A DNA stretch of 64,000 nucleotides, taken from assembly GCF_055900595.2 (NCBI RefSeq), contig NZ_CM148325.1; one strand, written 5' to 3'. The notes below the pieces were generated by a model. The model did no database searches and had not been told where the DNA came from. It saw nothing but the letters and a program-made list of their open reading frames with translations. Positions 44,252 to 60,694 of the stretch are shown in pieces. Each line of letters begins with the position of its first letter. The stretch's first letter is position 1. The position numbers and the translations under genes are program-made.

Positions 44252-44253
44252 GA

Positions 44254-47112
44254 TTAACCCTCCGCTCCGGTGATAACAGCAATTACCTGAATGTAGGGTT
44301 CTTTTTCAGTCGTCATGGTGTCCTCAATCCATTCGATATAGCTGTCAAAATTGTGTTCGATTTCGCGTTGTCTCTGCTCTTTACGGCTCTGCTTAACTGA
44401 CAATTGCTGTTTGTTATCGGCAAAATCCAGCTCAAGTTGGCTCAACTGCCGCCCACGCAAAACGTCCAGCTTTTGCAGATGCTCATTCAGTTGCTGGTTA
44501 ATGTGCGTTTCAAACGCATTCCGATCATGGATGAATACCTCCCGGGCATGAGCAATAGCCGCTTCCAGTAAATCCTGCTGGCGCTGGTGATTACGATCTT
44601 TACCGCCGCTGTTAGTCAGCTTGTTACTCAACTGCGGATGACGTTGTAAAAACTCAGCGAATGGCTGACTGCCGATTAGCGATTCACGGTTAAAGCTCAC
44701 CACTATCCACGGGTTCACCATCGGATGTGATTTACGGTTCGGGAATAACCCGGAAAGAATGAAGTGATCTTCATCGGGTTCAAGCAGGTATGGCAGACGG
44801 ATAACCGGTGCCTGATGACGACCAAAAGCCGAAGAGATTTTATCGTCCAGCCACTGCACTACCGGGTTGATTTGCCAGAGATACTGCACATCGGGCCAGG
44901 CATGTTGCTCACCGCGAGCGCGTGCAATCGCGTCGGTGATGACGGTTTTATCCTGACTTAAAAAGAGCTGCCAGTTCTCCGGGGCGATTTCAGGCGGTAG
45001 CTGGTTGAAGCGGCGGCGTAACTCCTCCGGTGCCACCAGCGACAAGGTATTATCAGGCAAGGTTTCATACTGGATAGTTTGACCACTGGCTTTCAGGTAA
45101 CCCAATGCTCTTTCACAGTACGCCTGTTCGCTGGCAAACAAGCTGGTGTCTGTTTCGATGACCATTGAGGCATCGCTGGAAACCGCACTGCATATTTCGC
45201 CAAACAGATCGTGTTCGGCGCTTTCCGAGACGTTGCTGTTCAGCAGTTGATCAAACAGGCTGGCACCATCATCCTGCATCATGAACTCTGCAACCTGCTC
45301 TTCTTCCTCTTCCTGGGTAAATTTGCCGGTAAACTCCGAACTGTCCCCAATGTTCTTCTGCGCCTGTTCGTCTTTGTTGATCAACACTTCCAGTACGCGC
45401 ATATCGCCATTGATCTGCGGTTCGCTGGCCTCGGTAAGCAGATAGCGGATTTGAGGCTGATGTTTTTGCCCATAGCGGTCAATACGCCCGTTACGTTGCT
45501 GGAATACCATCAACGACCACGGAATATCAAAGTGAATCATTTTGTGGCTAAGGTGATGCAGGTTGATCCCTTCAGATGCCACATCCGAACAAACCAGAAG
45601 ACGCAACGGCGACTGCGTTTTACCAAAGGCTTCTACGGTTTCCATCAACACCGTATCGCCCTGATCGCCGCGCAGCGTGGCGATCTGATCATCTTTCAAT
45701 TTCAGATCCGCTCGCAGTTGCTGTTCGAGGAACTCCAGCGTTTTAATGCTTTCGGTGAAGATCACCAGGCGATCTTCCGTGTTATTGGCTTTCCAGGCGA
45801 GGTCTTTTCGGATGGTGTCGAGCAGCAACTGGTATTTGCTAAACTGGCTGGCATCAATGTTATTCAGCGCCAACAGCAATGACTCCAGTTCGTTGATCTG
45901 GCTCTGGCTATTATGATCTTTACGGCTCTCAAGACGCTTCAGACGATTAGCCACTACGCTGGCACACGCCATCGGGCTGGAAAATAGCGCTTTTTCGAGG
46001 GTTATCTTGAACAGACGACCTTTGTTAGACTGGGCCTGTTCATCGTCATCATCACGGAACTGACTCTCAACCAGGCGACGGTATGCTTCTTCTTCGGCAC
46101 CGGATGCCAGGCGAGTCAGTTTGACAATATTGCGCTCGGGGAACTCGCCAGACATCTGATCTTTCACGTCTTTTTTGAAGCGACGGACAACCAGATTTTT
46201 ATCGGCAAAGTCGGCGTATTCATACTCTTTCGGGTTGGCGATCGCCGTCGGGTCAAGCATGTTCATCAGGCTGGCAAAACTTTCAGCTTTACCATCATGC
46301 GGCGTTGCTGAAAGCATAATCAGCGTATCGCTGCGCCCGGCGAGCAGTTTTGCCAGTTTACTGCGTAACGAACTGGTTCCACGTTCTGCGACGTTATGGG
46401 CCTCATCAATGACAATAATATCCCACCAGGCATTTTCCAGATGGTGACGATATTCAATATCTTGTTTCAGCGTATCGATGGAGATAATGGTCTTGTCAAA
46501 ATAGTGGAACGGGTTGTGGTTGGTAGGGATGCGGTTACGCACTTTTTGTAAACCAGCAGAATCCAGGCGGGTCAATGGGATCGCAAAACGGCTCCAGAAC
46601 TCCTTCTGGAATTGTGTCAGCATCGATTTAACCGCCAGAACCAGAATACGTTTTCCGCGCCCACGACGGATCAGTTCCGAAACCAGAATACCCGCTTCCA
46701 GCGTTTTACCCAGACCGACAGCGTCGGCAATGAGTATCCGCTGACGCGGTTGTGCCAGCGCCATCCGCGTAGGATCGAGCTGAAACGGCATGGAATCCAT
46801 CGCCGCCAGATGTCCAAAATGGACTTTACTGTCTGTCGGTACGCGTTGGCGTAACTGACTTTCAATATACAACTGTGCCGCCTGATAATTGGCGGATTCA
46901 TCTTCCACCAAATGCGTTTTTGCGGGATCAAGGATCTCTACTTTTTGTTCCAGTTTGGTCAGAAATAACCCTTCTTTACCGCGCACAAGCTCTGAAATAC
47001 CATCGCAGGTCAGCAAATACCCACCATCACCACTGTCATCCGCCCGGCGAATACGCCATTCGGCATCACGAATAACCACCCGCATACCAGGTGCATAATT
47101 TTGCTTATTCAT
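44254..47112 (-). CDS. SNF2-family helicase/ATPase (952 aa), DrmD-like
   Basis: Motif I LIADAVGLGKTLEAG, motif II IIVIDEAHNV, motif III LMLSATPHDG, SNF2-type motif VI FQQRNGRIDRYGQ. Confidence 0.85.
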   Translation of the reverse strand: MNKQNYAPGMRVVIRDAEWRIRRADDSGDGGYLLTCDGISELVRGKEGLFLTKLEQKVEILDPAKTHLVEDESANYQAAQLYIESQLRQRVPTDSKVHFGHLAAMDSMPFQLDPTRMALAQPRQRILIADAVGLGKTLEAGILVSELIRRGRGKRILVLAVKSMLTQFQKEFWSRFAIPLTRLDSAGLQKVRNRIPTNHNPFHYFDKTIISIDTLKQDIEYRHHLENAWWDIIVIDEAHNVAERGTSSLRSKLAKLLAGRSDTLIMLSATPHDGKAESFASLMNMLDPTAIANPKEYEYADFADKNLVVRRFKKDVKDQMSGEFPERNIVKLTRLASGAEEEAYRRLVESQFRDDDDEQAQSNKGRLFKITLEKALFSSPMACASVVANRLKRLESRKDHNSQSQINELESLLLALNNIDASQFSKYQLLLDTIRKDLAWKANNTEDRLVIFTESIKTLEFLEQQLRADLKLKDDQIATLRGDQGDTVLMETVEAFGKTQSPLRLLVCSDVASEGINLHHLSHKMIHFDIPWSLMVFQQRNGRIDRYGQKHQPQIRYLLTEASEPQINGDMRVLEVLINKDEQAQKNIGDSSEFTGKFTQEEEEEQVAEFMMQDDGASLFDQLLNSNVSESAEHDLFGEICSAVSSDASMVIETDTSLFASEQAYCERALGYLKASGQTIQYETLPDNTLSLVAPEELRRRFNQLPPEIAPENWQLFLSQDKTVITDAIARARGEQHAWPDVQYLWQINPVVQWLDDKISSAFGRHQAPVIRLPYLLEPDEDHFILSGLFPNRKSHPMVNPWIVVSFNRESLIGSQPFAEFLQRHPQLSNKLTNSGGKDRNHQRQQDLLEAAIAHAREVFIHDRNAFETHINQQLNEHLQKLDVLRGRQLSQLELDFADNKQQLSVKQSRKEQRQREIEHNFDSYIEWIEDTMTTEKEPYIQVIAVITGAEG

Positions 47113-47180
47113 CGGTTTTTCTGTCTATTTGGGGCAGTGGCGGTAACGTCATCCTGAAAAATGTGGCGCGGCACACTGCG

Positions 47181-47217
47181 ATAAAAAAGAGGGCCTTAAA
47201 GATATCATGAAGGCCCC
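47181..47217 (-). terminator. Rho-independent terminator between the Druantia-like pair and the SNF2 operon
   Basis: On the minus strand: stem GGGCCTT/AAGGCCC (7 bp, 12-nt loop) followed immediately by TCTTTTTTAT; located 120 bp after the 2107-aa gene stop. Confidence 0.65.
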
Positions 47218-47335
47218 CGGCAAAGTGACAAAATGGGAGGGAATGCGCATAATTTGCGCATGATTTTCAAACAAAAATTATTAAAAAGTGAGCTGGGTCA
47301 ACTCCCCTGGAAGATATCCCCAGGGGAGCAATTAT

Positions 47336-50300
47336 TTATCCAGCGATAACATAACTCCTAAGGTCATTACCCGGGGCAACAGCTCGCGCTCGCGTGTTTG
47401 CCAGCCGTTCAACTTGCTGCGGTACTCGCAGAGCAAAATCAAAGAAGGTGTCTTCAATACAGCGCCAGTAGCTAAGCCCCATGTCGAGCAGGACATAATG
47501 CTGACTGCCATCGCTGAAGGTGACTGTCAGTTCTCGTCCATGCTCCGTACTCTGGTTATCCCCCGTTAACCAGCTAATTGCTCCCGGCCACGCAGGCCCC
47601 AGATATCCTTCTTCAAGTAAAGTGGTCACAACCTGCTGACGATCTTCCTCATTAAGCCACGCGTTATAGAGAGCGTTGTGTTGGCGAGAGTTGTAATCCA
47701 ATTTTTTGACGCAAACAGTGAGGCTGGCGCGTTCCGCCATTCCCTGTTCAACCAGCTCGGTTAAGATTTCACCTAACATACGCGCCGTGAATGGGCTATT
47801 AAGATAACGATCGCTGTACTCAACATGCGTTATCTCTTTGTGGCGGGTAAATGCCTGCTTCCAGCCAGCGTGCTGTTGCGTGACTAACGACCAGAAACGC
47901 GAACCAAACCCTTCCAGCGGCCCGTCCAGTTGCTCGCAGAGGTTGATGCGCACCGCCCCGGTGGGTAAGGCGGGCAGTAAATCTTCTGCACTTAAGGTCT
48001 GACCCGAGAAGGTTTTTCCGGACGTTCCTTTAAGTGTCACTACTGGTGAGGACGCACTTTGTCCCCATAATTCACCAGGTGCAACGGTAGCGCTGTCGTC
48101 TGCGGCCCACTGTTGGCTTTGCCCTTCGCGAGTCACCTGCGCAAGCCAGCGCCCCTTTCCTTGCATGAGTTGCGCAGTGGCAATGGATTTCACTTGTAAG
48201 CGTCCTCCCGGCATCGCCGCCAACGCGGAAAGCTGATGTCTGGAGCTATCAGTTAAGTTTTCCAGCGGCGTGGCCACCAGCAACTCAACATTCCCACCGG
48301 AGGAGGCAAACTGGAGCAACTCTTTAAATAATGGCCATTGGGCAAAGTCCCACTGTTCCTGCGGCCCCGCAAGAACCAGCGAGCAGGAGTCATAAATCTC
48401 GCTGTTCAGGCATTGCGCAATACGTAAACTCAGAGGGTTAGTTTCAACCCGGCTACCATCGACGAAGTACTGATATTCTGGCGCGAGGTTAAGTCGCTGC
48501 AACCGTACATTGGTAAGCAGGGTTAATGCATGGTGACGATCTAATCTGTTGACATAATGCTGACTGTCGTAGCTGAGCAAGCAGTGGTGACAGAATTTAT
48601 CGCAACTGCAATCGAGCAATTTTCTGGCGTAATTAAAGACATCAGCCCAATGGTCGATCAATTGCACTGCATAACCTGCACCACCCGCATTATTGTCGTA
48701 AATGAAGATGGAATATCCGGTATAGCCATTGATATCGCGCGCTTGCTGCGTCGTCACGCCCAGCTCAGTATTTTCGATACCCAATTTATGCGCTAACCCT
48801 TCACGCAAAGCGACCGCAAGGGAACGCGCGGCAACCTCATCACGGATCAACAGGCCATTATCATCATTGAGTTGCAGCTCAACCATATCTGTACGACTGC
48901 TATACCCCAACCACAGATCTTTATGCACATGACCGTGGCACAATTTATTGCTCCCCTGACGATCGTTACTGCCCCCTCGCAACAGGTAATGCGTATTTTC
49001 CCGCTCTGGGTTCTTTAGATTTTCAGGGGTACGCTGGGGTTGAGTTTGAGATTCTGCCCGACCACATGAGAGGCAAATTGCGTAGCCGTGCCCAAATTCC
49101 CCTTCACTGAAGTGGAACAATTCCCCACTATGGCTAAAACGGTAACGTCCTAGCCCAGCATCGGGTAAAGAAACCCACACCGAAGACGGTACAAGAACAC
49201 GTGGATCTTTCCAGGGAAGTTGTGCAGGCATGGATACATCATTATGTGCCTGATAACGAATATCTGTCGCAAAACCAACAGGCTGTAAATAACGCTTCAC
49301 ATCAAGTTGCTGTATATCCGCTTTGCAGTGACTACATTCGACAGGATGGGTAGCACTGGTTGCCCCCGCACCACATTTACGGCAATGCCAGAACCACGGA
49401 ATATGATGATCGCCTGACAGCTCCTGCCCGCTGGCAAGTACCTTGCCAAGCATAATGCCCGAGGAACGATATACTTTTCCGCCCAATACCACATCTGCAC
49501 CAGGCGCATACTCGCGTAATGCTGTAGGTAGATCACGGCAGGGCAATTTTTCAATACGACGAGAAAAGCTTTCTCCCCCTTCATTAGGGTCAGCCTGAGT
49601 AGCTTTTATTGCGCGACGTTTTTCCAGCTCATCTGCCGTCAGATAATTGAAATTGACGACACCAACCGGGAAACCATGCCCTGGCAGGAACGCTTCACTA
49701 ATGAGTTTAGAAAACAGATATGCACCGCGATAATCACGAAGCTGATAAGCGATGGCTTTACCTGCTGGCGTTTCTTCCCACGCGCTGTTATCCGCTTTCA
49801 ACGCTTCGATATTTTCCAACAGTATCGCAAGTTGGCTTCTCCAGCGGATATCAACCTGCTGCATCATTGCTTGTGTGCGGGTCAAGAGCTGGGTTGCCGT
49901 CAATGACATCAGGACGGTTCCCTGAGTAAGGCGTTTAAGTTTATCCGCCAGCTGATCGGCCTGGTTATTTAACCAATGGAGAAAACGAAGACACTGGCTC
50001 TCATCACCTTCAAAGAACCATTTGCAACTCAGTTTTGTCGCATCAGGAACTTCAGCTCGTAAAAACAGACCTAAAACCAGGGCATTAACATGTCGTTGAA
50101 CAATACTGCTGCTCCCAAAACGAACCCGTGGCGCACTGGCAGTAGTGTTGAACGCCCAGAGGGGGTCTTTGAATACCTCCATTCCATGCGCCGTGTTTTT
50201 ACATAACGTAATGGCAGCAGATGCACTCTCTCCACGTCGACCCGCGCGGCCTGCACGCTGCAAATAATTTGCCGGAGCTGGAGGAACGTTGTTCATTGCC

Positions 50301-53300
50301 ACCAAACTCATACCACCAATGTCCACCCCCATCTCCATGGTCGTGGAGCAGTTCAGCACATTAACTTTGCCTGACTTAAATTGTTTTTCATTAAACTGGT
50401 TCTGCTCAGGCGTTCTCTGCGCAGAGTGTTCCTCCAGACGATACCAGCTATCTTTCAGGGCCAGTCGGTCGCTGCGAGTAGACCATAATCCTTCCTCGCG
50501 GGCATGTTGAATCAGCGCATTACTTTCCAGCCACTCCAGGCGTTCTTCTCGGGCGATTTCTCCACCACCAGACAAACGCCAGTGACGTACAGGAAGCTCA
50601 GGCATTTCAATCAACACTGCTTTTTCAGGTGCAATTTCTTTGCTACCCGGCAAATACGGAGAGTATCCCAGCAACGTGACGTCTAACGCACGTCGAGTAT
50701 AGGGGCAACGCCACACTTGCTTTGGACTGTAAAATTCAGCCTGTTGTTTAATATCCAGCTGATAACCCGACTCAAACTGACGTAAGCAGGGTCGAATTGC
50801 ATCCCAGACCTCAATCATTAAGTGGTTAACTAACGATTTCCAGTGAGCCTGCTCAGGTTGTATTGCCGGAAAGACTGCAATTAATAGCTTAATGACCCGG
50901 TTATAATGGCGATCGCGTATTTGTGGCCAAAGTTGATCACGTTTCTGCCCTTTGTTTTTTTTATCTGGACCCTGGAGCATTTTTACCGGGAAACGAGCCC
51001 CCATCCAGCGAGGGTATTGCTCGTTTTCGTAAAAAACGGCACTGTTTTCACGTATAAAGAAATCAAGAGTAATCTTCAATAAATTACGCCATTCCGCTAA
51101 TTGCTTATCGGGATCGGGTAATAATGTCTTCCAGTCCTGCGGGCAGGTTGTAACTTTATCAATAAATGGATAGTGAATGGCTACCAGACCCAGACTTTCG
51201 AGGGTCCAGGCATTTTTAGGGCGGCGACCAAATTCACTGTATAAACAAAAATCTGCAAACTGTTGTTTAGTAAGATCAAGCCCAGACAATTCTTTAAAAC
51301 TGCCTCTCATTCTATCGGCAAGGTCCACACTGCCAACCAGCTGTTCAGACAGTGTTTGCCATGACATGGTTTTCTTCTGCTGATTGCCAGAGTTAGCCTG
51401 GAGTATTTGCATCGCTTCAGCATGATCCGGGCTTAAGGAACTCACCATCGGCTCGATAATTTTAAGTGCCTGAATGTCCGCCGGGCTAAGCTCTTCATTA
51501 GCAACCATCGATTTTTTCAGCGCGTCAATAGAGTTTTTTAAAGGAAGGATAGAAAACTGGGCAATAAAACTCTCTAACAATGCGCAGTGTGCCGGGCTGA
51601 GCTTTGCTGATGGCTCATTAATATTGGCCAACTCCTGGTAGCAAAGAGCTCGCAACGTCGCTTTATCGGCATCCTGCTGTAAGCGGGCAGAAATGCGGGC
51701 AGTGCCCTGACGTGAATCCGTAAAGGTGAGCAGACGTCGACCATTAAACGGTCCTAACTGCTCTTCTCTTGTCTGCGGTAATGGTGAAAACTCCAGCAGA
51801 GTAGGAATAATTTCATTTAAAAAAAAGGGCGCGCCAAGTCGAAGCGGACGGAATAAAGGATTATTTTTTCGTTGGGTGTCACCACAGCAAACACAAGCAA
51901 AGGAATTATTACGTCCCTCACCTCGAGATTCCGGTCTTAACAGGTTTATTTCATAGTGCTTTTGCGCTTCACTATCAATTTTCCCCGCCGTCGTTTCTTC
52001 CAGTGAAATGATATATTTTTCACCATCGCTCGCAATCAGACGATCAAATTGAGAGTTATTGTCTAATTCGTCGTTGTCTTCATCTTCAGAATAAACATCT
52101 ACATCAAGAGCAAACTCATCCACTTCGGCAGCGGCGGGTTGCGCTACCAACCAGTTCGTTCCATCACCGCGCATCTCCTCTTTGGCAGACAAATAAGCTG
52201 AACCACACCCGGAGCAACGTAAAACTTCAAATACCGGCGCACCACAGTCACAATATTGGCGCTGCTCAAACCATACCTGACCAAATGGCCAGTCACTCTG
52301 ATTTAATTCATGTGCTTTATGTGAGCATTGTTTGTTTGAACATGCCCATAGACCCGCCAGTGTTCTGATAAATCCATGCATACGTAATGGCGTAAAAGCC
52401 AGTTCACCTTCTCGCGATCTTGCCATTAGATCGAGGAGTTGCAGTAGCTCACGGTGATTAATATCTGGCCAGGTTCTTCTGGCAACATTGAGCAACTCAC
52501 TCAAACGTACTGCCTGCCGTCCGGGATGAGTTAACGCCTGACGCAATTGCTGGGCCACACGGTAATGACAAAGCTGTTGGTAAAGATCCTGAGGGCTCAG
52601 AGATTTAAGAGAAGTTAAAGATGTGGGGTATTCATGACGAATCAGCGACTCCGATACCCGCGGTATTTGTCGATAGCCGCGAACCACTTTGACATCACGT
52701 TCTGTAACGCCCGCAAGATCAGCGACAAATTTAGCAAGCTCCTTATTACCTTCAGGAGAGTCTTCACCAATAGTGGCAGAGGTCGCGATAATCTGCACAG
52801 GTTTATCTGTGCCAGGTCCAACATTGAAAGCCTGCATAACACGACGTAAAAGCAGCGCTAACTCAGCAGCCTGAGAACCAATATAACTATGGGCTTCATC
52901 CAGGACGATATACTTTAACATCCCCTGAGACTTTTCGATGATTGGGGCATCTTTACGACGAATCAGCATATATTCCAGCATGGTGGTATTCGTCACCATG
53001 ATGGAAGGTGGTGCTTCGTAAATGGCTTCCCGACTCAAAGCTTGTTCAGGTACTTTCAACTGATCTTCCTGAACTTCGTATTTGGTATGCCGGGTTTCGC
53101 CATTATATAGCGCGAAGCGTATTTTCCCCTTAAATCCGCGCGTCCATTCGCGAAGCCGCTCCTGTTGGCTGTTAATTAATGCATTTAACGGATACAAGAA
53201 AATAGCTTGTGTCCCTGTTAGTGACTGACGGGTCGATTTTTGCTGACGAATAAGATCTTCCAGGACCGGTACCATAAAGCATTCTGTTTTCCCGGATCCC

Positions 53301-53659
53301 GTACCGCTGCTCACTAACAAGGATTTTTTGTCTTCCAGAATTGTTCGCCACGCAGTGAGTTGATGACGAAATGGCACTGGCGCTTTGCTCAATGCATCAA
53401 CCTGCGGGCTGGAGATCAGCTTGTCCCGCAAATCCTCCATTGTTTCATCCGCAGGCATCCAGCCGAATGTACTTTCGAATACCGGGCCTGCAAGCAGTGA
53501 CCCCTCCTGACCGGGAGGCTGAAAATATTGTGATTCCAGATAATGAGTCAACGACTTGCTCCGCAATGCCAACTGACTTACCACCGACCTCACCGCACGC
53601 TGATGAAGCTGATTTAGAAGTGGCGCATAATGCAGTTGCTGAACGTCCATCAATGACAT
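47336..53659 (-). CDS. druE: Giant (2107 aa) DEAH helicase with DUF1998-like Zn-ribbon C-terminal region; Druantia DruE-like
   Basis: Motif I LVSSGTGSGKTECFMVPVL, motif II YIVLDEAHSY, motif VI QRAGRAGRRGE; Cys clusters CRKCGAG...CSHCK, CLSCGR, CSCDKFCHHC; start overlaps upstream gene by 10 bp. Confidence 0.7.
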   Translation of the reverse strand: MSLMDVQQLHYAPLLNQLHQRAVRSVVSQLALRSKSLTHYLESQYFQPPGQEGSLLAGPVFESTFGWMPADETMEDLRDKLISSPQVDALSKAPVPFRHQLTAWRTILEDKKSLLVSSGTGSGKTECFMVPVLEDLIRQQKSTRQSLTGTQAIFLYPLNALINSQQERLREWTRGFKGKIRFALYNGETRHTKYEVQEDQLKVPEQALSREAIYEAPPSIMVTNTTMLEYMLIRRKDAPIIEKSQGMLKYIVLDEAHSYIGSQAAELALLLRRVMQAFNVGPGTDKPVQIIATSATIGEDSPEGNKELAKFVADLAGVTERDVKVVRGYRQIPRVSESLIRHEYPTSLTSLKSLSPQDLYQQLCHYRVAQQLRQALTHPGRQAVRLSELLNVARRTWPDINHRELLQLLDLMARSREGELAFTPLRMHGFIRTLAGLWACSNKQCSHKAHELNQSDWPFGQVWFEQRQYCDCGAPVFEVLRCSGCGSAYLSAKEEMRGDGTNWLVAQPAAAEVDEFALDVDVYSEDEDNDELDNNSQFDRLIASDGEKYIISLEETTAGKIDSEAQKHYEINLLRPESRGEGRNNSFACVCCGDTQRKNNPLFRPLRLGAPFFLNEIIPTLLEFSPLPQTREEQLGPFNGRRLLTFTDSRQGTARISARLQQDADKATLRALCYQELANINEPSAKLSPAHCALLESFIAQFSILPLKNSIDALKKSMVANEELSPADIQALKIIEPMVSSLSPDHAEAMQILQANSGNQQKKTMSWQTLSEQLVGSVDLADRMRGSFKELSGLDLTKQQFADFCLYSEFGRRPKNAWTLESLGLVAIHYPFIDKVTTCPQDWKTLLPDPDKQLAEWRNLLKITLDFFIRENSAVFYENEQYPRWMGARFPVKMLQGPDKKNKGQKRDQLWPQIRDRHYNRVIKLLIAVFPAIQPEQAHWKSLVNHLMIEVWDAIRPCLRQFESGYQLDIKQQAEFYSPKQVWRCPYTRRALDVTLLGYSPYLPGSKEIAPEKAVLIEMPELPVRHWRLSGGGEIAREERLEWLESNALIQHAREEGLWSTRSDRLALKDSWYRLEEHSAQRTPEQNQFNEKQFKSGKVNVLNCSTTMEMGVDIGGMSLVAMNNVPPAPANYLQRAGRAGRRGESASAAITLCKNTAHGMEVFKDPLWAFNTTASAPRVRFGSSSIVQRHVNALVLGLFLRAEVPDATKLSCKWFFEGDESQCLRFLHWLNNQADQLADKLKRLTQGTVLMSLTATQLLTRTQAMMQQVDIRWRSQLAILLENIEALKADNSAWEETPAGKAIAYQLRDYRGAYLFSKLISEAFLPGHGFPVGVVNFNYLTADELEKRRAIKATQADPNEGGESFSRRIEKLPCRDLPTALREYAPGADVVLGGKVYRSSGIMLGKVLASGQELSGDHHIPWFWHCRKCGAGATSATHPVECSHCKADIQQLDVKRYLQPVGFATDIRYQAHNDVSMPAQLPWKDPRVLVPSSVWVSLPDAGLGRYRFSHSGELFHFSEGEFGHGYAICLSCGRAESQTQPQRTPENLKNPERENTHYLLRGGSNDRQGSNKLCHGHVHKDLWLGYSSRTDMVELQLNDDNGLLIRDEVAARSLAVALREGLAHKLGIENTELGVTTQQARDINGYTGYSIFIYDNNAGGAGYAVQLIDHWADVFNYARKLLDCSCDKFCHHCLLSYDSQHYVNRLDRHHALTLLTNVRLQRLNLAPEYQYFVDGSRVETNPLSLRIAQCLNSEIYDSCSLVLAGPQEQWDFAQWPLFKELLQFASSGGNVELLVATPLENLTDSSRHQLSALAAMPGGRLQVKSIATAQLMQGKGRWLAQVTREGQSQQWAADDSATVAPGELWGQSASSPVVTLKGTSGKTFSGQTLSAEDLLPALPTGAVRINLCEQLDGPLEGFGSRFWSLVTQQHAGWKQAFTRHKEITHVEYSDRYLNSPFTARMLGEILTELVEQGMAERASLTVCVKKLDYNSRQHNALYNAWLNEEDRQQVVTTLLEEGYLGPAWPGAISWLTGDNQSTEHGRELTVTFSDGSQHYVLLDMGLSYWRCIEDTFFDFALRVPQQVERLANTRARAVAPGNDLRSYVIAG

Positions 53660-56600
53660 ACTCCTGCTTGTTCAAAATAATATTGATAGATTACCCCTAA
53701 TTGCTGTGGGGCTTGCTGATAGTGAAATTCAAAAAGCGCAGACAGTTGATGTATCAGGTTATTATCTTTTTGGGTTAACAGCGCTGCGACTAACATCAAA
53801 TTAAAACGTTTTTCAAGCCGTGAGTGATATTTATCTTCAATCCAAAGCTTATTAAAAACAGATTTTAACTCTGGAGTAATAGCACTAGACCAAAGTTCTT
53901 TAGGGAAGATACTGATACGCCCAAAGCTGTCGGGGTTCCTTAATAGCATCTGTTTAGCTTCATTAAACTGCTCACGACTAACAGTTGGCAATACATCACA
54001 ACCGGTTGGTAGGCTCTCACTATATGTAAGTAACATATTCGCAATGGGAGCCAGCCGACGATCGATATGTGCACGATGGTTCATAAAAGCAATAAAGGGT
54101 TGCAATATATGTAATGCTAATGTTTTATCGTTAATCTGTTTTTCCAGATAAGCCCAACATTTTTGGAAAACATCTTTCCAGATTGAAACGGGAATCCATC
54201 CCCATGAAAAGGGTAATTCTTCCTGTATATCATAAATCGTATCGCTATCACCAGAAAGACATGATGATATTAACAACTGAACAACCACGCGGTAATTACT
54301 CGAAATACCTCTGAACAAGTCCAGATCCAGCAAGGATAAGCCATTATTCATTTTGTATTTCTTAATATACTCTGTTAATAAACAGCAATAATTTTGCAAT
54401 GGGTTGTTATCTATTTCAAAAATTAGCTCATTAAATTTTTTTTTGCGCTGTTCTGGGTCTGCTTCGCATAGAGCATTTAGTAATAAATCATTTGTCTGCA
54501 ATACAGGTAGCATCCATTTAATTACTGGTGCAATGCGAGCTGTACCATCAAGTTTTCCCACAATTAACCATGGACTATCCTGAACATTCAGAGCTGAAAG
54601 ATCATAAGCAAATTCATCTTTTTTTAGCAATGATTTGTGTAAGCCAGGATCCTTAAGAGAAATAGCATCAACAACCAGTTCGTCTATTCTATTTGCAGGA
54701 AAAACAACAGAATTTTTTATATCAACCAGCAACCCTTGATCGTGTTCAATAAAACTACCATCGTAGCGTTTAATATTGAGTGTTGCTTTATCCTTTCCAA
54801 ATCTGTCAGAGTAAAAATCAACACATAATGTACTATTGCTGTTCCATGCACATGCCAGCATAGAATTTAGCAAATTATAGTTCTCATAAAGTGAAATTTG
54901 TTGTAATTTGTCATTGCGTCCTGATAAAAGAGGAAGGTCGGCATGTAAATAACGGAATTTTTCAGCTACTGGATTTTCATCCAATAACTCGATATTAAGA
55001 TATCCTCTTCCAGCACATGACATGGTTAATAACTCAGCATCTATTCCATGCAAATGTGCTATAGATGCCACACCATCAAAATGAACAGAACCATCATTAG
55101 TTACAAATCGGCCACCGCTAACCGGCTTAGGTAATAATAGTTTAAGATTAGAACCATCTTTCCAGGAGACCCGTAAATCAACGGTATTTTCCAGCATCTG
55201 CGATGAATTATAATAAATAGCACACTCGTTTTGTGAATAATCGGACTTAAGTGTTACTTTTTCATTGTTTGTATATTTGTCAATTCTAGTATCCGTTATA
55301 CCAGAAAGCATTATGATGCCTTGCTGAGCACTCTCAGGTATAATATTAATATCGAAGTCTGCTGGTAAAACTACAACTTTACCGCTAAATAAAACCTCAT
55401 CATTAACTATTCGTCTGACTTCTATCTGTCCTTTTGGCATTTCTGATGCGACAGAATACCAGGCATTGTTACCTGAACGAATGGAACGCCAAAAAAGTTC
55501 TTTCTCCGGTACAATGCCATATTGCAGATCCTTTTTCCAACCGATCTTCGGCCAGGCTCGATGGACAGGATAATCCGATTTAACCAGTTCAACTTCTGTC
55601 GATTTAATATAATATTCAATCGCAGAATCATAAAGTTGCTGGGTGCGAATTGTACAAACTGCACCATCATGTAAAACAACACTAAATACTCCACTTATTT
55701 TAGTTAAGCTGCGTTCACTGTTTTTCAGCAACCTTGGGATATCAAACTCACCTTCTCCACTAATATCTAAATGGCTATTTTTCGGTAGCGAAATAAACAG
55801 AGCATTTAGCCTGGAACTCACAGACCCCATACCGACAAGTTTTAGCTGCGATTCACTCTCATTCATCGCTTCAAAAACCCAGGGGAGTTCTTCAGTAAGT
55901 TCATAACCGCCTTTTGGAATTGTGTGGCCTAACAGAATTGGACCTTCATGAAGCGACAACGAGATTTCGGCCATTGCATCTGCACCAGAGAGCTTTTGCA
56001 TCGCAATAGGTAATAACTCGACCCGCCAATCTTGCTGCTCATAACGGCTTAGCATTGCCAACCTTGCCCCGCCATTTCTCCATTTTCCTGAAATGATGAG
56101 TCGGGTCTGCTCCGGCTGAATATTGCATTCAAACAAAGAGGTTAACTGTTCTGTACGCATTGTGGCCGGGAATCGGAACCGGGCATCACAATACCAACTG
56201 TCATCAACATCGACCCAGATTCTTTCAACCTGAAGACTACTTGCACTGCGTATTTCAGAAGATTGAGAAAGTAATCGCCTTACAATCTCTGCAGCATTCG
56301 CTTCGGGGAGAACGAGTGGAAGTTGAAGATGCCAGTCTGGAGAGAGCTTACGTAATGCAGAAACGGGATCACTGCTTTGAGGTGGATGCTCACTAAGTAA
56401 TCGGCAGAGAGTCTCGCAGAATTCACCGGCTATTTCATAGACCAGTTCGTTTTGCATTGTGACAGGAATCGTATCGCCTAATTTTTGTGCAATTTTAGCG
56501 GCAGGATATTGAGATGCTTGCCCACGAAGCGCCTGATATATCCTTCTGAAATAGGTAATCAAATAACCGCTCTCATTTTCAATCATGCGGATAGGTAAAC

Positions 56601-57009
56601 CACCTTCACAAGCCAGTGTATGCAGATAACCCGAAGCTTGCCCCAGGTTTCTTATCTTTCTTTTCCAGTAGCGAATGCCATCATTAACCAGCTTCTGTCG
56701 ATGAACATACGGAACTTTCCAGTCAATAGAATCTAAAATTGTGTCCCATTTAGGGTGTCCGACCGTATGAGTCCGGCGGATAAACTCTGCGGCATATATG
56801 CTAAATAGAACATCGCTATAGGAAATGAATATCGTTCTTGGATAACTACGGGGGGCATATGTACGCAGTAGTTCTGCCAAACTTTCGTACTCTGTATCAG
56901 TACAACGGTAAGCATATAACGCCCGTCCATCAGCTCCGGATAATGAACGGCGACTAAAAAACATGTTAAGCCATTGCAAAAGTGGGTTAACTGGAGTTTT
57001 CACAAGCAA
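53650..57009 (-). CDS. druH: Large (1119 aa) protein without recognisable catalytic motifs; Druantia type III DruH-like partner of DruE
   Basis: Long uninterrupted ORF, no P-loop or nuclease motif visible; translationally coupled to the DruE-like gene; size and pairing match what is described for DruH. Confidence 0.55.
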   Translation of the reverse strand: MLVKTPVNPLLQWLNMFFSRRSLSGADGRALYAYRCTDTEYESLAELLRTYAPRSYPRTIFISYSDVLFSIYAAEFIRRTHTVGHPKWDTILDSIDWKVPYVHRQKLVNDGIRYWKRKIRNLGQASGYLHTLACEGGLPIRMIENESGYLITYFRRIYQALRGQASQYPAAKIAQKLGDTIPVTMQNELVYEIAGEFCETLCRLLSEHPPQSSDPVSALRKLSPDWHLQLPLVLPEANAAEIVRRLLSQSSEIRSASSLQVERIWVDVDDSWYCDARFRFPATMRTEQLTSLFECNIQPEQTRLIISGKWRNGGARLAMLSRYEQQDWRVELLPIAMQKLSGADAMAEISLSLHEGPILLGHTIPKGGYELTEELPWVFEAMNESESQLKLVGMGSVSSRLNALFISLPKNSHLDISGEGEFDIPRLLKNSERSLTKISGVFSVVLHDGAVCTIRTQQLYDSAIEYYIKSTEVELVKSDYPVHRAWPKIGWKKDLQYGIVPEKELFWRSIRSGNNAWYSVASEMPKGQIEVRRIVNDEVLFSGKVVVLPADFDINIIPESAQQGIIMLSGITDTRIDKYTNNEKVTLKSDYSQNECAIYYNSSQMLENTVDLRVSWKDGSNLKLLLPKPVSGGRFVTNDGSVHFDGVASIAHLHGIDAELLTMSCAGRGYLNIELLDENPVAEKFRYLHADLPLLSGRNDKLQQISLYENYNLLNSMLACAWNSNSTLCVDFYSDRFGKDKATLNIKRYDGSFIEHDQGLLVDIKNSVVFPANRIDELVVDAISLKDPGLHKSLLKKDEFAYDLSALNVQDSPWLIVGKLDGTARIAPVIKWMLPVLQTNDLLLNALCEADPEQRKKKFNELIFEIDNNPLQNYCCLLTEYIKKYKMNNGLSLLDLDLFRGISSNYRVVVQLLISSCLSGDSDTIYDIQEELPFSWGWIPVSIWKDVFQKCWAYLEKQINDKTLALHILQPFIAFMNHRAHIDRRLAPIANMLLTYSESLPTGCDVLPTVSREQFNEAKQMLLRNPDSFGRISIFPKELWSSAITPELKSVFNKLWIEDKYHSRLEKRFNLMLVAALLTQKDNNLIHQLSALFEFHYQQAPQQLGVIYQYYFEQAGVCH

Positions 57010-57220
57010 CCTGCCTTCCTTTGATACAATTCGTAACAGGTTACTATCATCATAAAAAAGCTCAACCCGATGAACTCGCTAAAAATGAGACAAATCATTT
57101 ATATCTCGAAAAAACTTGTTACAATCATGAGCGCTACACCGAACTTAACCATATAAATTATGTGCGTTTTGTTTATTTTTTAAACAATTACAACTATCCA
57201 TTATTTACACAGGTATCAAA

Positions 57221-58873
57221 ATGTTAGCGCAGCTTTTTGAGCAGTTGTTTCAATCGATAGACTCTACACTGATCACCAATATTTTCATCTGGGCTGTTAT
57301 ATTCGTATTTTTATCAGCGTGGTGGTGTGACAAAAAAAATATACATAGTAAGTTTAGAGAATATGCTCCAACCTTAATGGGGGCATTAGGTATTCTGGGT
57401 ACTTTCATTGGTATTATTATTGGGTTACTCAATTTTAATACTGAAAGTATTGATACCAGCATCCCCGTATTATTAGGCGGCCTAAAAACAGCATTCATTA
57501 CAAGCATTGTAGGTATGTTTTTTGCCATTTTATTTAATGGAATGGATGCTTTCTTTTTTGCCAATAAACGAAGTGCGTTAGCAGAAAATAACCCTGAATC
57601 TGTTACACCTGAACATATCTATCATGAATTAAAAGAGCAGAACCAGACTCTGACTAAATTAGTCTCGGGTATTAACGGTGATAGTGAAGGTTCTCTTATT
57701 GCTCAAATAAAATTACTACGTACTGAGATTAGCGATTCCTCGCAGGCACAATTAGCTAATCACACTCATTTCAGTAATAAGCTTTGGGAACAACTTGAAC
57801 AATTTGCAGATCTAATGGCAAAAGGTGCTACAGAACAAATTATTGATGCTTTACGACAAGTCATTATTGATTTTAATGAAAATTTAACTGAACAGTTTGG
57901 TGAAAACTTTAAAGCACTTGATGCCTCTGTAAAAAAACTTGTTGAGTGGCAGGAAAATTATAAAACGCAAGTTGAGCTGATGTCAGAACAATATCAACAA
58001 AGTGTCGAGTCTCTGGTTGAAACAAAAACTGCGGTTGCCGGGATTTGGGAAGAATGTAAAGAAATTCCTCTGGCTATGTCTGAACTGCGTGAAGTGCTTC
58101 AGGTGAACCAACATCAAATCAGCGAACTCTCCCGCCATTTAGAAACCTTTGTCGCTATCCGCGATAAAGCTACAACCGTATTACCTGAAATACAGAACAA
58201 AATGGCTGAAGTGGGTGAACTGCTGAAATCCGGAGCTGCAAATGTTAGTGCATCTCTTGAGCAAACCAGCCAGCAAATACTTCTTAATGCAGATTCAATG
58301 CGCGTGGCCCTGGATGAAGGTACCGAAGGATTCAGACAATCGGTTACCCAAACACAACAAGCATTTGCCTCGATGGCACATGATGTCAGCAATTCCTCCG
58401 AAACTCTAACCAGCACGTTAGGTGAAACAATTACTGAAATGAAACAAAGTGGTGAAGAATTCCTGAAGTCACTAGAGTCGCACTCGAAAGAATTGCATAG
58501 AAATATGGAACAAAATACGACTAATGTAATTGATATGTTCAGTAAGACTGGTGAAAAGATTAACCATCAACTATCCAGTAATGCCGATAATATGTTTGAT
58601 TCAATCCAGACATCATTTGATAAGGCAAGTGCAGGGCTGACTTCTCAAGTCAGAGAATCAATTGAAAAATTTGCTCTATCCATCAACGAGCAGTTACATG
58701 CTTTTGAGCAAGCAACTGAACGTGAGATGAACCGTGAAATGCAATCATTAGGTAATGCTCTGCTTTCAATCAGCAAAGGTTTTGTCGGTAACTATGAAAA
58801 ACTTATTAAAGATTACCAAATAATTATGGGGCAGTTACAAGCATTAATTTCTGCTAATAAACATCGAGGGTAA
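57221..58873 (+). CDS. zorA: MotA/ExbB-like membrane protein with long C-terminal coiled-coil tail; Zorya ZorA-like
   Basis: N-terminal TM helices (LITNIFIWAVIFVFLSAWW, LMGALGILGTFIGIIIGLL, AFITSIVGMFFAILFNG) followed by ~400 aa of heptad-like Q/E/L-rich sequence. Confidence 0.75.
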   Translation: MLAQLFEQLFQSIDSTLITNIFIWAVIFVFLSAWWCDKKNIHSKFREYAPTLMGALGILGTFIGIIIGLLNFNTESIDTSIPVLLGGLKTAFITSIVGMFFAILFNGMDAFFFANKRSALAENNPESVTPEHIYHELKEQNQTLTKLVSGINGDSEGSLIAQIKLLRTEISDSSQAQLANHTHFSNKLWEQLEQFADLMAKGATEQIIDALRQVIIDFNENLTEQFGENFKALDASVKKLVEWQENYKTQVELMSEQYQQSVESLVETKTAVAGIWEECKEIPLAMSELREVLQVNQHQISELSRHLETFVAIRDKATTVLPEIQNKMAEVGELLKSGAANVSASLEQTSQQILLNADSMRVALDEGTEGFRQSVTQTQQAFASMAHDVSNSSETLTSTLGETITEMKQSGEEFLKSLESHSKELHRNMEQNTTNVIDMFSKTGEKINHQLSSNADNMFDSIQTSFDKASAGLTSQVRESIEKFALSINEQLHAFEQATEREMNREMQSLGNALLSISKGFVGNYEKLIKDYQIIMGQLQALISANKHRG

Positions 58874-58879
58874 TCGATC

Positions 58880-59587
58880 ATGGATAAGATTATAGGGAAA
58901 CAATTACCTAAAAAAGATCAAGATAATGAACACTGGGTATCCATGTCAGACCTAATGGCAGGGCTGATGATGGTTTTTATGTTCATATCTATTGCTTATA
59001 TGCACTACGTACGTATTGAAAAAGAAAAAATTAAAGAAGTTGCCGTAGCCTACGAGAATGCTCAGTTACAGCTTTATAATGCTCTGGATATTGAGTTTGC
59101 AAAGGATTTGCAAGACTGGGATGCAGAGATCGATAAGCAGACTCTGGAGGTTCGATTTAAATCACCGGATGTTTTATTTGGCTTAGGAAGCACAGAGCTT
59201 AAACCAAAGTTTAAACTCATTCTTGACGACTTCTTTCCTCGCTACCTAAAAGTTCTTGATAATTATCAAGAACATATTACTGAAGTCCGCATTGAAGGTC
59301 ACACAAGTACTGACTGGACTGGAACAACGAATCCTGATATTGCTTATTTTAATAATATGGCACTATCACAAGGTCGTACACGTGCAGTATTACAATACGT
59401 TTATGATATAAAAAATATCGCGACACACCAACAATGGGTTAAAAGTAAATTTGCCGCAGTAGGTTATTCATCTGCACATCCCATTCTTGATAAAACCGGC
59501 AAGGAGGATCCTAATCGCTCTCGTCGTGTCACCTTCAAAGTTGTAACAAATGCCGAGTTGCAGATTAGAAAGATTATTCAGGAGTAA
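58880..59587 (+). CDS. zorB: MotB-like protein with single TM helix and OmpA-type peptidoglycan-binding domain; Zorya ZorB-like
   Basis: TM segment MSDLMAGLMMVFMFISIAY, C-terminal OmpA-family motif (NMALSQGRTRAVLQYV); 6 bp after zorA stop. Confidence 0.75.
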   Translation: MDKIIGKQLPKKDQDNEHWVSMSDLMAGLMMVFMFISIAYMHYVRIEKEKIKEVAVAYENAQLQLYNALDIEFAKDLQDWDAEIDKQTLEVRFKSPDVLFGLGSTELKPKFKLILDDFFPRYLKVLDNYQEHITEVRIEGHTSTDWTGTTNPDIAYFNNMALSQGRTRAVLQYVYDIKNIATHQQWVKSKFAAVGYSSAHPILDKTGKEDPNRSRRVTFKVVTNAELQIRKIIQE

Positions 59588-59590
59588 GAG

Positions 59591-60694
59591 ATGAAATTAT
59601 CTATCGACATTTCAGAACTTATTCAATTAGGGAAGAAAATGTTACCAGAAGGAGTCGATTTTTTTCTGGATGAATCCCCTATTGACTTTGATCCTATAGA
59701 TATTGAGTTATCCACGGGTAAAGAAGTTAGTATCGAAGATCTTGACCCTGGTAGCGGGCTTATCTCTTATCATGGCCGCCAGGTTCTTTTATATATTAGG
59801 GACCATTCAGGGCGTTATGATGCGGCTATCATCGATGGCGAAAAAGGAAAACGTTTTCATATTGCCTGGTGCAGAACTCTTGATGAAATGCGCCATAAAA
59901 ATCGATTTGAAAGGTATCATGCAACTAACCGCATAGATGGTTTATTCGAAATTGATGATGGTTCAGGTCGGAGCCAGGATGTTGATTTACGGGTATGTAT
60001 GAATTGTCTGGAACGACTTAATTACAAAGGAAGTATTGATAAACAAAGGAAAAGAGAGATTTTTAAATCATTCTCATTAAATGAGTTTTTTTCAGATTAT
60101 AGTACCTGTTTTCGTCATATGCCTAAGGGTATCTATGACAAAACAAATAGTGGGTATGTCGAAAACTGGAAAGATATATCAAAATCAATACGAGAAAAGG
60201 CCAAGTATACTTGTAATGATTGTGGTGTGAATTTATCAACCGCCAAAAACTTGTGCCATGTCCATCATAAAAATGGCATCAAATATGATAATCACCATGA
60301 AAACCTTCTTGTTCTGTGTAAGGATTGCCATCGTAAACAGCCCCTCCATGAAGGTATATTCGTTACCCAAGCTGAGATGGCTATCATTCAACGTTTACGT
60401 TCCCAACAAGGGTTATTAAAAGCCGAATCCTGGAATGAAATATATGACCTGACTGATCCATCAGTACATGGTGATATTAATATGATGCAACATAAAGGCT
60501 TTCAACCTCCTGTTCCTGGGTTAGATCTTCAAAACTCAGAACATGAAATTATTGCAACCGTAGAAGCAGCATGGCCAGGCCTTAAAATTGCAGTTAACCT
60601 TACTCCCGCCGAAGTCGAAGGATGGAGAATATATACCGTGGGTGAGCTGGTTAAAGAAATACAAACAGGAGCCTTTACGTCAGCAACGTTGTAA
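59591..60694 (+). CDS. zorE: HNH endonuclease-domain protein; Zorya type II effector ZorE-like
   Basis: HNH motif CNDCGVNLSTAKNLCHVHHKNGIKYDNHHENLLVLCKDCH plus an upstream CMNCLERLNYKG Zn-ribbon; 3 bp after zorB stop. Confidence 0.75.
   Translation: MKLSIDISELIQLGKKMLPEGVDFFLDESPIDFDPIDIELSTGKEVSIEDLDPGSGLISYHGRQVLLYIRDHSGRYDAAIIDGEKGKRFHIAWCRTLDEMRHKNRFERYHATNRIDGLFEIDDGSGRSQDVDLRVCMNCLERLNYKGSIDKQRKREIFKSFSLNEFFSDYSTCFRHMPKGIYDKTNSGYVENWKDISKSIREKAKYTCNDCGVNLSTAKNLCHVHHKNGIKYDNHHENLLVLCKDCHRKQPLHEGIFVTQAEMAIIQRLRSQQGLLKAESWNEIYDLTDPSVHGDINMMQHKGFQPPVPGLDLQNSEHEIIATVEAAWPGLKIAVNLTPAEVEGWRIYTVGELVKEIQTGAFTSATL

What the first reader, a model, noticed from the sequence alone, without database searches (positions are those of the whole stretch)
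47336..57009. Druantia type III-like pair: 1119-aa DruH-like protein and 2107-aa DruE-like helicase
Seen in sequence: two translationally coupled minus-strand genes (10-bp overlap); the downstream one has DEAH helicase motifs I, II and VI plus C-terminal Cys clusters, the upstream one has no recognisable enzymatic motif. Established knowledge: Druantia type III is defined as DruH plus DruE, with DruE a ~2000-aa helicase/DUF1998 protein. Mechanism of Druantia is, to my knowledge, still poorly understood, so an intact chromosomal copy with its native promoter is useful material.
Basis: partly seen in the sequence, partly recalled or inferred. Interest (0 to 1): 0.6.

Follow-up and report, generated by a model that had tools for sequence, protein, structure and literature searches.

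The report
Known E. coli Druantia III defence pair
This is an intact copy of the two-gene anti-phage system Druantia type III (DruH plus the giant helicase DruE), sitting in the well-described E. coli Zorya II–Druantia III–ARMADA II defence island; near-identical copies have already been cloned, tested against phages and solved by cryo-EM, so it is real but ordinary.

Summary
Two long minus-strand ORFs sit at the stated coordinates, and both match Druantia type III profiles end to end (DruH3 2545 bits, DruE3 2173 bits). One correction: the accepted DruE start is probably the second ATG (53650). That gives 2104 aa and a 1-nt TGATG overlap, not 2107 aa and 10 bp.

The locus is not new. DruE is 99.6% and DruH 98.5% identical to the E. 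coli ATCC 8739 proteins. That pair was cloned with its native promoter and shown to defend against phages. Near-identical EDL933 proteins have solved structures (PDB 9TU7–9TUD). About 10% of complete E. coli genomes carry this DNA, almost always between ARMADA II and Zorya II, as here.

Published mechanism: DruE is a 3'→5' YprA-family helicase that loads on exposed ssDNA or forked phage DNA. DruH is an essential partner that binds or trims ssDNA. Defence is direct, not abortive. Whether DruE's C-terminal PLD-like domain cuts DNA is disputed among 2026 preprints. My alignment shows an invariant YxDRY…HxR…DxG pocket in 57 of 57 homologues, which argues that this domain has a function.

Verdict: already known, low interest.

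The parts
53650..57009 (-). druH (1119 aa, TTG start; an in-frame GTG at 57003 would give 1117 aa). YjiT/STY4851/ECs_5259 family.
   Evidence: ORF; DruH3 PDLC00041, 2544.7 bits, profile 1-1117 of 1117; NF038336, 987.8 bits against cutoff 150; PDB 9TUD, 2552.9 bits; 98.5% identical to ATCC 8739 DruH, same length.
47336..53650 (-). druE, accepted form of 2104 aa starting at the second ATG. The longest ORF starts at 53659 (2107 aa). YprA-family SF2 helicase with MZB/DUF1998 and two C-terminal PLD-like domains.
   Evidence: RefSeq start; DruE3 PDLC00037, 2173.4 bits, profile 4-2051 of 2055; Pfam; PDB 9TU7, 4863 bits; 99.6% identical to ATCC 8739 DruE.
53285..53299 (-). DruE helicase motif I (Walker A), GSGKT. 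K124 in the 2107-aa ORF is K121 in published numbering.
   Evidence: K121A abolishes defence in E. coli DruE (PMC13192584).
52889..52900 (-). DruE helicase motif II, DEAH (D251/E252 in published numbering).
   Evidence: DEAH mutants lose defence.
50237..50260 (-). DruE helicase motif VI, QRAGRAGR (R1135/R1139 in published numbering).
   Evidence: R1135A abolishes defence.
48578..48817 (-). DruE MZB (MrfA Zn-binding, formerly DUF1998) domain with the C-x-C-x3-C-x2-C cluster (C1681/1683/1687/1690 in published numbering).
   Evidence: PF09369, E = 7.2e-12. All four Cys are 98-100% conserved in 57 homologues. Cys-to-Ala mutants fail to defend.
47477..47818 (-). Conserved pocket of the second PLD-like domain. 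In ORF numbering: Y1948-x-D1950-R1951-Y1952, P1956, H2040-x-R2042, D2059-x-G2061. Subtract 3 for published numbering.
   Evidence: D, H, R, D, G and P are invariant in 57 of 57 full-length DruE homologues that share only 25-32% identity here; no canonical HxK(x)4D motif.
56593..56931 (-). DruH N-terminal helical region, which holds the family-invariant residues Y32, Y34, R35, E75, R79, R117 and C134-E135-G-G-L-P139.
   Evidence: Alignment A1 of 26 DruH homologues down to 18% identity.
57010..57220 (.). 211-bp divergent intergenic region between druH and zorA2. It holds the druHE promoter region (candidate -35/-10 pairs on the minus strand at 57227-57200 and 57184-57157) and the druH Shine-Dalgarno AGGAAGG (57020-57014).
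   Evidence: consensus matches only; 209 of 211 positions identical to the ATCC 8739 region that drives functional druHE from plasmids.
47113..47335 (-). 223-bp gap between the druE stop and the armA start. It contains a weak terminator-like hairpin (47304-47290) and a promoter-like site (47231-47204).
   Evidence: pattern matches, not above shuffle expectation; identical to ATCC 8739.
57221..60694 (+). Neighbouring system, not part of Druantia: Zorya type II zorA2 (57221-58873), zorB2 (58880-59587) and zorE (59591-60694).
   Evidence: NF041792 1139 bits, NF041787 444 bits, NF041791 691 bits; all above cutoff.
30877..47112 (-). Neighbouring system, not part of Druantia: ARMADA type II. armA, SNF2 helicase (44254-47112); armB, methyltransferase (39329-44251); armC, DruE-like YprA helicase (32988-39329); armD, UvrD/GajB-like helicase (30877-32991).
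   Evidence: All residues mutated in PMC12458937 are present at the same numbering. Naming follows.

Best explanation
The two genes are an intact, chromosomal Druantia type III (subtype III-A, E. coli 'cluster 11') anti-phage system. It lies in a leuX-associated Zorya II–Druantia III–ARMADA II defence island of an E. coli genome.

**How it works, from near-identical orthologues**
- druH and druE are co-transcribed from the 211-bp region shared divergently with zorA2, and they are translationally coupled.
- DruE is a YprA/MrfA-like SF2 helicase. It loads on exposed single-stranded DNA (3' tails, forks, duplex-ssDNA junctions) typical of phage replication and recombination intermediates. It then translocates 3'→5', using ATP, and unwinds the phage genome.
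- DruH is indispensable. It binds ssDNA or 3' ends. In the Pseudomonas orthologue it trims them as a 3'→5' exonuclease, and it licenses or stabilises DruE on the substrate.
- The infected cell survives, so defence is direct rather than abortive. There is no methylation-based self-marking.

**Shown here:** identity, integrity and presence of every residue reported as essential.

**Taken from the literature on orthologues:** all biochemistry and phenotypes.

**Inferred and unresolved:** whether DNA is also cut by DruE's second PLD-like domain. I think it probably is in some contexts, because its pocket is invariant across the family.
For: **Family and integrity**
- Full-length DruH3 and DruE3 profile matches; NF038336 above cutoff; DEAD, Helicase_C and MZB domains.
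- 99.6% and 98.5% identity, with equal lengths, to ATCC 8739 DruE and DruH. Near-identity to the solved EDL933 structures 9TU7-9TUC and 9TUD.
- All functionally tested residues are conserved: DruE K121, D251, E252, R1135 and C1681/1683/1687/1690; DruH N672, Y733, R1031, H1062 and R1064.
- The promoter region matches the functional ATCC 8739 clone at 209 of 211 positions.

**Context**
- The armA-druE junction occurs in 524 of 5426 complete E. coli genomes and the druH-zorA junction in 510. In all, 551 genomes carry this druHE DNA.
- Core fim/uxu/gntP genes flank the island.

**Literature**
- DruHE alone is sufficient for direct defence from its native promoter (10.64898/2026.05.12.722862 and 10.64898/2026.05.13.724758).
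- 3'→5' helicase on ssDNA-containing substrates.
- DruH binds ssDNA and is inhibited by ATP. DruH is a 3'-5' exonuclease and forms a fork-dependent DruE-DruH complex.
- No change in host methylation.

**My own alignment**
- PLD2 pocket invariant in 57 of 57 homologues.
- DruH invariants are concentrated in the N-terminal cleft region.
Against: - This exact allele (8 DruE and 17 DruH substitutions relative to ATCC 8739) has not itself been tested.
- The mechanistic sources are mostly un-reviewed preprints, and they disagree.
  - Loeff et al. (Pseudomonas system) report that the DruE PLD nuclease is essential. Wu et al. (E. coli) report that DruE cleaves long DNA in vitro and infer that cleavage is required for defence.
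  - Hu et al. and Himpich et al. find no nuclease activity. [quoted passage not shown]
  - Loading polarity differs: a 3' overhang, a 5'-overhang junction.
  - DruH is variously described as an exonuclease, a dimeric nickase and phage-protein sensor, or a non-catalytic ssDNA binder.
- The ssDNA/ATP-site residues of E. coli DruH are conserved only within the enterobacterial clade.
Confidence: 0.88

Rival explanations
1. Non-nucleolytic variant. DruE only unwinds phage DNA, and DruH sequesters the resulting ssDNA once cellular ATP falls. No DNA is cut by the system, and the two PLD-like domains are vestigial for defence.
For: - Hu et al. and Himpich et al., working with E. coli proteins 99% identical to these, find that DruE(1-1723) and PLD deletions still defend. 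They see no reproducible nuclease activity, and ATP competes with ssDNA on DruH.
- There is no canonical HxK(x)4D motif in this DruE.
Against: - The PLD2 pocket residues D1950, R1951, Y1952, H2040, R2042, D2059 and G2061 are invariant in 57 of 57 homologues that share only 25-32% identity in this region. That is hard to reconcile with a vestigial domain.
- The Pseudomonas orthologue loses defence when the D-R-Y or D1740 residues are mutated.
- Wu et al. see ATP/Mg-dependent cleavage of long DNA by E. coli DruE.
- Dispensability was shown for only one or two phages, without the neighbouring systems.
Confidence: 0.3
2. The pair is not an autonomous system here. It is one module of a single integrated Zorya II–Druantia III–ARMADA II machine, whose real output depends on the neighbours: ZorE and ArmC nucleases, and ArmB methylation for self/non-self discrimination.
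For: - The three systems are adjacent in at least 92% of the E. coli genomes that carry this druHE, and they move together on different mobile elements.
- Synergy is reported for Druantia III with ARMADA II and with Zorya II, including ZorAB-independent use of ZorE.
- DruE and ArmC are paralogous YprA helicases.
Against: - druHE alone, on a plasmid in K-12 strains that lack the neighbours, gives up to about 10^3-fold protection.
- Single-system deletions in EDL933 and ATCC 8739 each have their own phenotype.
- A 223-bp gap with its own promoter-like site separates druE from armA.
- Druantia III occurs widely without these neighbours in other genera.
Confidence: 0.1
3. The locus is a decaying remnant, like the K-12 yjiT/yjiV pseudogenes, and is no longer functional.
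For: - The island appears immobilised. There is no integrase or tRNA gene in the window, and it is flanked by truncated nan genes.
- The YjiT family is known from a K-12 remnant.
Against: - Both ORFs are full length and the same length as the functional references. They carry only 8 and 17 conservative-looking substitutions, and every tested catalytic or binding residue is intact.
- The regulatory region is 99% identical to a functional one.
Confidence: 0.02

Closest known systems
E. coli ATCC 8739 / NCTC 12923 Druantia III ('EcDruIII'; Hu et al. 10.64898/2026.05.12.722862; Himpich et al. 10.64898/2026.05.13.724758)
   Same: Same two genes, same lengths (1119 and 2104 aa), 98.5% and 99.6% protein identity, the same divergent promoter region (209 of 211 positions) and the same Zorya II and ARMADA II neighbours.
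   Different: - There are 17 DruH and 8 DruE substitutions, including E1058/D1059 here against K/N next to the reported ssDNA/ATP site.
- The ATCC 8739 island is reported at a tRNA-Phe site. The closest match to this window (EC42405) has it at tRNA-Leu, next to ahr and idnK.
E. coli O157:H7 EDL933 O-island 172, Z5897/Z5898 (DruH/DruE); PDB 9TUD and 9TU7-9TUC
   Same: Near-identical proteins (4863 and 2553 bits over the full length). The leuX-side island has the same nine-gene order zorABE / druHE / armABCD.
   Different: DNA identity is about 98.9%, against 99.3-99.5% to ATCC 8739 and EC42405. This window comes from a different E. coli lineage that is not in the complete-genome set.
Pseudomonas aeruginosa type III Druantia (Loeff, Chanez & Jinek, 10.64898/2026.05.13.724313)
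   Same: - Same two-gene architecture and DruE domain order.
- The D-R-Y and H-x-R residues reported there as a PLD nuclease pocket have an invariant counterpart here (mapped by pattern, not by direct alignment to the Pseudomonas sequence).
- The conserved N-terminal cleft of DruH is shared.
   Different: - It belongs to a distant clade and defends against T-even phages.
- The nuclease and DruH exonuclease activities shown there are not confirmed for the E. coli clade, where the PLD-like domains were dispensable.
ARMADA type II ArmC (window 32988-39329) and DISARM DrmA/DrmB; B. subtilis MrfA/YprA (PDB 6ZNP)
   Same: All share a YprA-family helicase core with an MZB/DUF1998 domain. DruE aligns to ArmC at 30% identity (RecA1) and 23% (RecA2-MZB), and to 6ZNP at E = 2e-19.
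   Different: Druantia III has no methyltransferase and no SNF2 partner. It has DruH instead. Its C-terminal nuclease-like domains are PLD-type, whereas ArmC's are reported as Vsr/PD-(D/E)xK-type.

Membership tests
Druantia type III | DruE: giant (about 2000 aa) SF2 DEAD/DEAH helicase with a DUF1998/MZB zinc domain, matching the DruE type III profile. | tested here: met
   PDLC00037 DruE3, 2173.4 bits, profile 4-2051 of 2055. Pfam DEAD, Helicase_C and MZB PF09369 at E = 7e-12. Motifs I, II and VI present.
Druantia type III | DruH: protein of about 1100 aa in the YjiT/STY4851 family, matching the DruH profile. | tested here: met
   PDLC00041 DruH3, 2544.7 bits, profile 1-1117 of 1117. NF038336, 987.8 bits against cutoff 150. 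9TUD 'DruH', 2552.9 bits.
Druantia type III | druH immediately upstream of druE, co-directional, forming one operon. | tested here: met
   Stop/start overlap of 1 nt (accepted start) or 10 nt (longest ORF) on the minus strand.
Druantia type III | Confers phage resistance that needs both genes and DruE ATPase activity. | not testable with these tools
   Shown for 98.5-99.6% identical orthologues. All the mutated residues are present here.
Druantia subtype III-A (two C-terminal PLD-like domains) | Tandem PLD-like domains after the MZB domain, with the distal one carrying the conserved pocket. | tested here: met
   Full-length near-identity to 9TU7, whose authors describe PLD1 and PLD2. Invariant YxDRY…HxR…DxG in residues 1948-2061 across 57 homologues. 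Pfam itself reports no PLD family, and there is no canonical HxK(x)4D motif.
YprA/MrfA helicase family | SF2 core plus an OB-connector-DUF1998 module, homologous to MrfA. | tested here: met
   PDB 6ZNP YprA, E = 2.3e-19. MZB = MrfA Zn-binding domain.
DISARM (considered) | Separate DrmA helicase, DrmB DUF1998 protein, DrmC PLD protein and a methyltransferase (DrmMI/MII). | tested here: not met
   DruE hits DrmA profiles only weakly (38 bits). There is no methyltransferase within the pair. The nearby methyltransferase belongs to the separate armABCD cluster.
Zorya II–Druantia III–ARMADA II island (OI-172 type) | Nine-gene order: zorABE divergent from druHE, followed by armABCD. | tested here: met
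   Junctions conserved in 510 and 524 E. coli genomes. Described in 10.1101/2025.09.22.677730 and PMC12458937.

The most novel reading that the evidence does not exclude
The distal PLD-like domain of DruE could be a genuine, non-canonical (HxR instead of HxK) nuclease or phosphodiesterase. Its activity would matter only in particular contexts, such as certain phages or the synergy with the adjacent ARMADA II and Zorya II systems. That would reconcile the contradictory 2026 reports of 'essential nuclease' and 'dispensable domain'. The evidence is the absolute conservation of YxDRY…HxR…DxG in 57 of 57 distant homologues, set against the published dispensability in E. coli for Bas08 and Bas26.
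Probability: 0.4. Interest if true: 0.4.

Novelty: already known. Interest (0 to 1): 0.12.

Why it matters
It matters little as a discovery. The same locus at 99% identity has been cloned, phage-challenged, mutated and solved by cryo-EM, and about one in ten complete E. coli genomes carries it.

The residual value is as one more natural allele of a system whose final step is still disputed: unwinding only, or unwinding plus cleavage. The family-wide invariance of the PLD2 pocket and of the DruH N-terminal cleft, seen here, points to specific mutants that could settle that dispute.

Tried and rejected
- **A word-indexed homologue search with the DruE C-terminus** returned only fragments. I replaced it with the exhaustive representative search.
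- **Locating the Pseudomonas DruE among the hits** by its published residue numbering failed. The correspondence between its D1917-R-Y/H1999-x-R2001 site and D1950-R-Y/H2040-x-R2042 here therefore rests on pattern and spacing only.
- **Pseudogene or remnant reading** is rejected: lengths and residues are intact.
- **DISARM membership** is rejected.
- **RNA elements:** no tRNA and no Rfam family anywhere in the window.
- **Promoter and terminator scans** give consensus matches only. Terminator-like sites are no more frequent than in shuffles, and promoter-like sites only modestly more (28 against 17.6 ± 4.6), so I treat them as candidates only.
- **Orphan ORFs:** PHROGs, PADLOC and NCBIfam gave nothing for the ORFs at 28756-29145 and 29713-30363.
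Full report
**1. Observation**

Reading the junction shows the druH stop TGA at 53652-53650 and two in-frame ATGs for druE, at 53659 and 53650. The AGGAG Shine-Dalgarno sequence (53665-53661) is 1 nt from the first ATG and 10 nt from the second. RefSeq annotation of the closest genome and the published E. coli work ('1119 and 2104 residues') use the second ATG. The '10-bp overlap' is therefore a property of the longest ORF. The likely arrangement is a TGATG 1-nt overlap, which still implies translational coupling.

- GSGKT at 121-125
- DEAH at 254-257
- QRAGRAGR at 1134-1141
- Cys clusters, including C1684/1686/1690/1693

**2. Identity**

- PADLOC profiles match both proteins end to end: DruE3 PDLC00037 at 2173.4 bits and DruH3 PDLC00041 at 2544.7 bits.
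- NCBIfam places DruH in NF038336 (YjiT/STY4851/ECs_5259 family) at 987.8 bits, against a cutoff of 150.
- Pfam finds DEAD, Helicase_C and MZB (PF09369, the former DUF1998; E = 7e-12) in DruE. It finds nothing in DruH.

**3. Context**

The pair is the middle of a three-system island.
- **Upstream:** Zorya type II (zorA2, zorB2, zorE; 57221-60694, + strand) lies divergently upstream. All three proteins score above the NCBIfam equivalog cutoffs.
- **Downstream:** After a 223-bp gap come four co-directional genes (30877-47112). They encode an SNF2 helicase, a 1640-aa methyltransferase, a second DruE-like 2113-aa helicase and a UvrD/GajB-like helicase. The literature names this set ARMADA type II, armABCD. 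Every ARMADA residue mutated in PMC12458937 is present at the same numbering.
- **Flanks:** The first 25 kb of the window is core E. coli chromosome (iatD, uxuAB, gntP, fim). In the closest complete genome the island ends at tRNA-Leu next to ahr and idnK. That is the leuX site of O-island 172.
- **Frequency:** This druHE DNA occurs in 551 of 5426 complete E. coli genomes. The armA-druE junction occurs in 524 and the druH-zorA junction in 510. The tripartite arrangement is the rule.

**4. Already characterised**

- DruE is 99.6% identical (8 of 2104 substitutions) and DruH 98.5% identical (17 of 1119) to the ATCC 8739 proteins.
- The druH-zorA intergenic region is identical at 209 of 211 positions.
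- The PDB holds cryo-EM structures of near-identical proteins: 9TU7-9TUC (DruE, 4863 bits) and 9TUD (DruH, 2553 bits). These are the EDL933 proteins of Himpich et al..
- The ATCC 8739 druHE operon with its native promoter protects K-12 strains against many BASEL phages without killing the cell. Both genes and the DEAH motif are required.
- Deletion mutants in EDL933 and ATCC 8739 show synergy with ARMADA II. Synergy with Zorya II has been dissected mechanistically.

**5. Mechanism**

*Points the reports agree on.* DruE is a dimerising YprA/MrfA-like SF2 helicase. It engages DNA through exposed ssDNA and unwinds 3'→5'. DruH is essential. Defence is direct. The host genome is not modified.

*Residues conserved here.* All residues reported as essential are present:
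- DruE K121, D251, E252, R1135 and C1681/1683/1687/1690
- DruH N672, Y733, R1031, H1062 and R1064

*Points the reports dispute.*
- Loeff et al. (Pseudomonas system) find that DruH is a 3'-5' exonuclease. They also find that the DruE PLD pocket (D1740, D1917-R-Y, H1999-x-R2001) is an ATP-driven nuclease needed for defence.
- Wu et al. see cleavage of long DNA by E. coli DruE. They propose that DruH is a phage-protein sensor with nicking activity when dimeric.
- Hu et al. and Himpich et al. find no nuclease. For them both PLD-like domains are dispensable, and DruH is an ATP-inhibited ssDNA binder.

**6. My own tests bearing on the dispute**

(a) This DruE has no canonical HxK(x)4D motif. I aligned its C-terminus with 56 full-length DruE homologues from an exhaustive search; they share only 25-32% identity in this region. 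Residues D1950, P1956, H2040, R2042, D2059 and G2061 are invariant, and Y1948, R1951 and Y1952 are 96-98% conserved. The first PLD-like domain has no such signature. The set was chosen by C-terminal similarity, so it says nothing about DruE proteins that lack the domain.

(b) I aligned 26 DruH homologues down to 18% identity. The invariant residues cluster in the N-terminal helical domain: Y32, Y34, R35, E75, R79, R117 and C134-E135-G-G-L-P139. The reported E. coli ssDNA/ATP-site residues are conserved only among close relatives.

Both results favour functional, possibly catalytic, sites at the positions Loeff et al. describe. They do not prove activity in this clade. The mapping to the Pseudomonas residues is by pattern only, because I could not identify that sequence among the hits.

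**7. Rivals**

- A purely non-nucleolytic mechanism remains plausible. It has strong E. coli genetics behind it and sits awkwardly with the conserved pocket.
- Obligatory dependence on the neighbouring systems is contradicted by the stand-alone activity of druHE.
- A decayed remnant is contradicted by intact lengths and residues.

**8. Verdict**

Interest is low. The only open thread is the role of the PLD2 pocket and of the DruH N-terminal cleft, for which specific mutants are proposed.

Noticed in passing
window 30877-47112 (-): A complete ARMADA type II system (armA SNF2 helicase, armB 1640-aa methyltransferase, armC 2113-aa DruE-like YprA helicase, armD UvrD/GajB-like helicase) lies directly downstream of druE. 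The genes are tightly packed (2-nt gap, then 1-nt and 4-nt overlaps). All published catalytic residues are present at identical numbering. armB is 4 aa shorter than in strain EC42405.
   Followed up: partly
window 57221-60694 (+): A complete Zorya type II system (zorA2, zorB2, zorE) is transcribed divergently from druH across a 211-bp intergenic region. It is reported to act synergistically with Druantia III.
   Followed up: partly
window 26558-27082 / 28610-28792 and 60874-61399 / 61397-61567: The block of three defence systems is bracketed by direct repeats. A 527-bp copy (93% identical) of the 5' part of nanM and a 183-bp copy (86% identical) of sequence beyond truncated nanS recur just right of zorE, with the intervening 1.5 kb deleted. 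The right-hand copy encodes only a nanM fragment. This looks like a scar of how the island was acquired or immobilised, and it could allow loss of the island by recombination.
   Followed up: partly
window 61521-62171 (-) and 62251-63180 (+): Two more defence-type genes lie at the right edge of the island. One is an HNH endonuclease (216 aa). The other is a phosphorothioated-DNA-binding restriction endonuclease (NF045808, 438 bits against cutoff 180). No dnd or ssp phosphorothioation genes are present in the window.
   Followed up: no
window 29713-30363 (+): A conserved 216-aa orphan ORF sits between the island's left edge and armD. It is annotated as hypothetical in RefSeq. It has no PADLOC, NCBIfam or PHROGs match, and only a faint uracil-DNA-glycosylase superfamily hit (PF03167, E = 0.004).
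   Followed up: partly
window 47336-60694: There is a sharp composition step inside the coupled operon. druH is 39.7% GC, like zorA2B2E (about 38%). druE is 48.8% GC, rising to 51% in its 3' third, like armABCD (50-53%) and the core genome (49%). This suggests different histories for the two Druantia genes, despite their reported co-phylogeny.
   Followed up: no
DruH homologues P0001-P0043: The protein database's precomputed annotation lists two Pfam families (PF27205.1 and PF27201.1) on nearly all DruH homologues. The Pfam-A library available to profile_search found nothing in DruH, so newer Pfam releases evidently now cover this protein.
   Followed up: no
Himpich et al. preprint: The preprint's helicase-dead mutant is written 'E525A in RecA1'. 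Residue 525 (published numbering) is Asp in this 99%-identical protein and lies in an acidic insert. The DEAH glutamate is E252, so the label is probably a digit transposition.
   Followed up: partly
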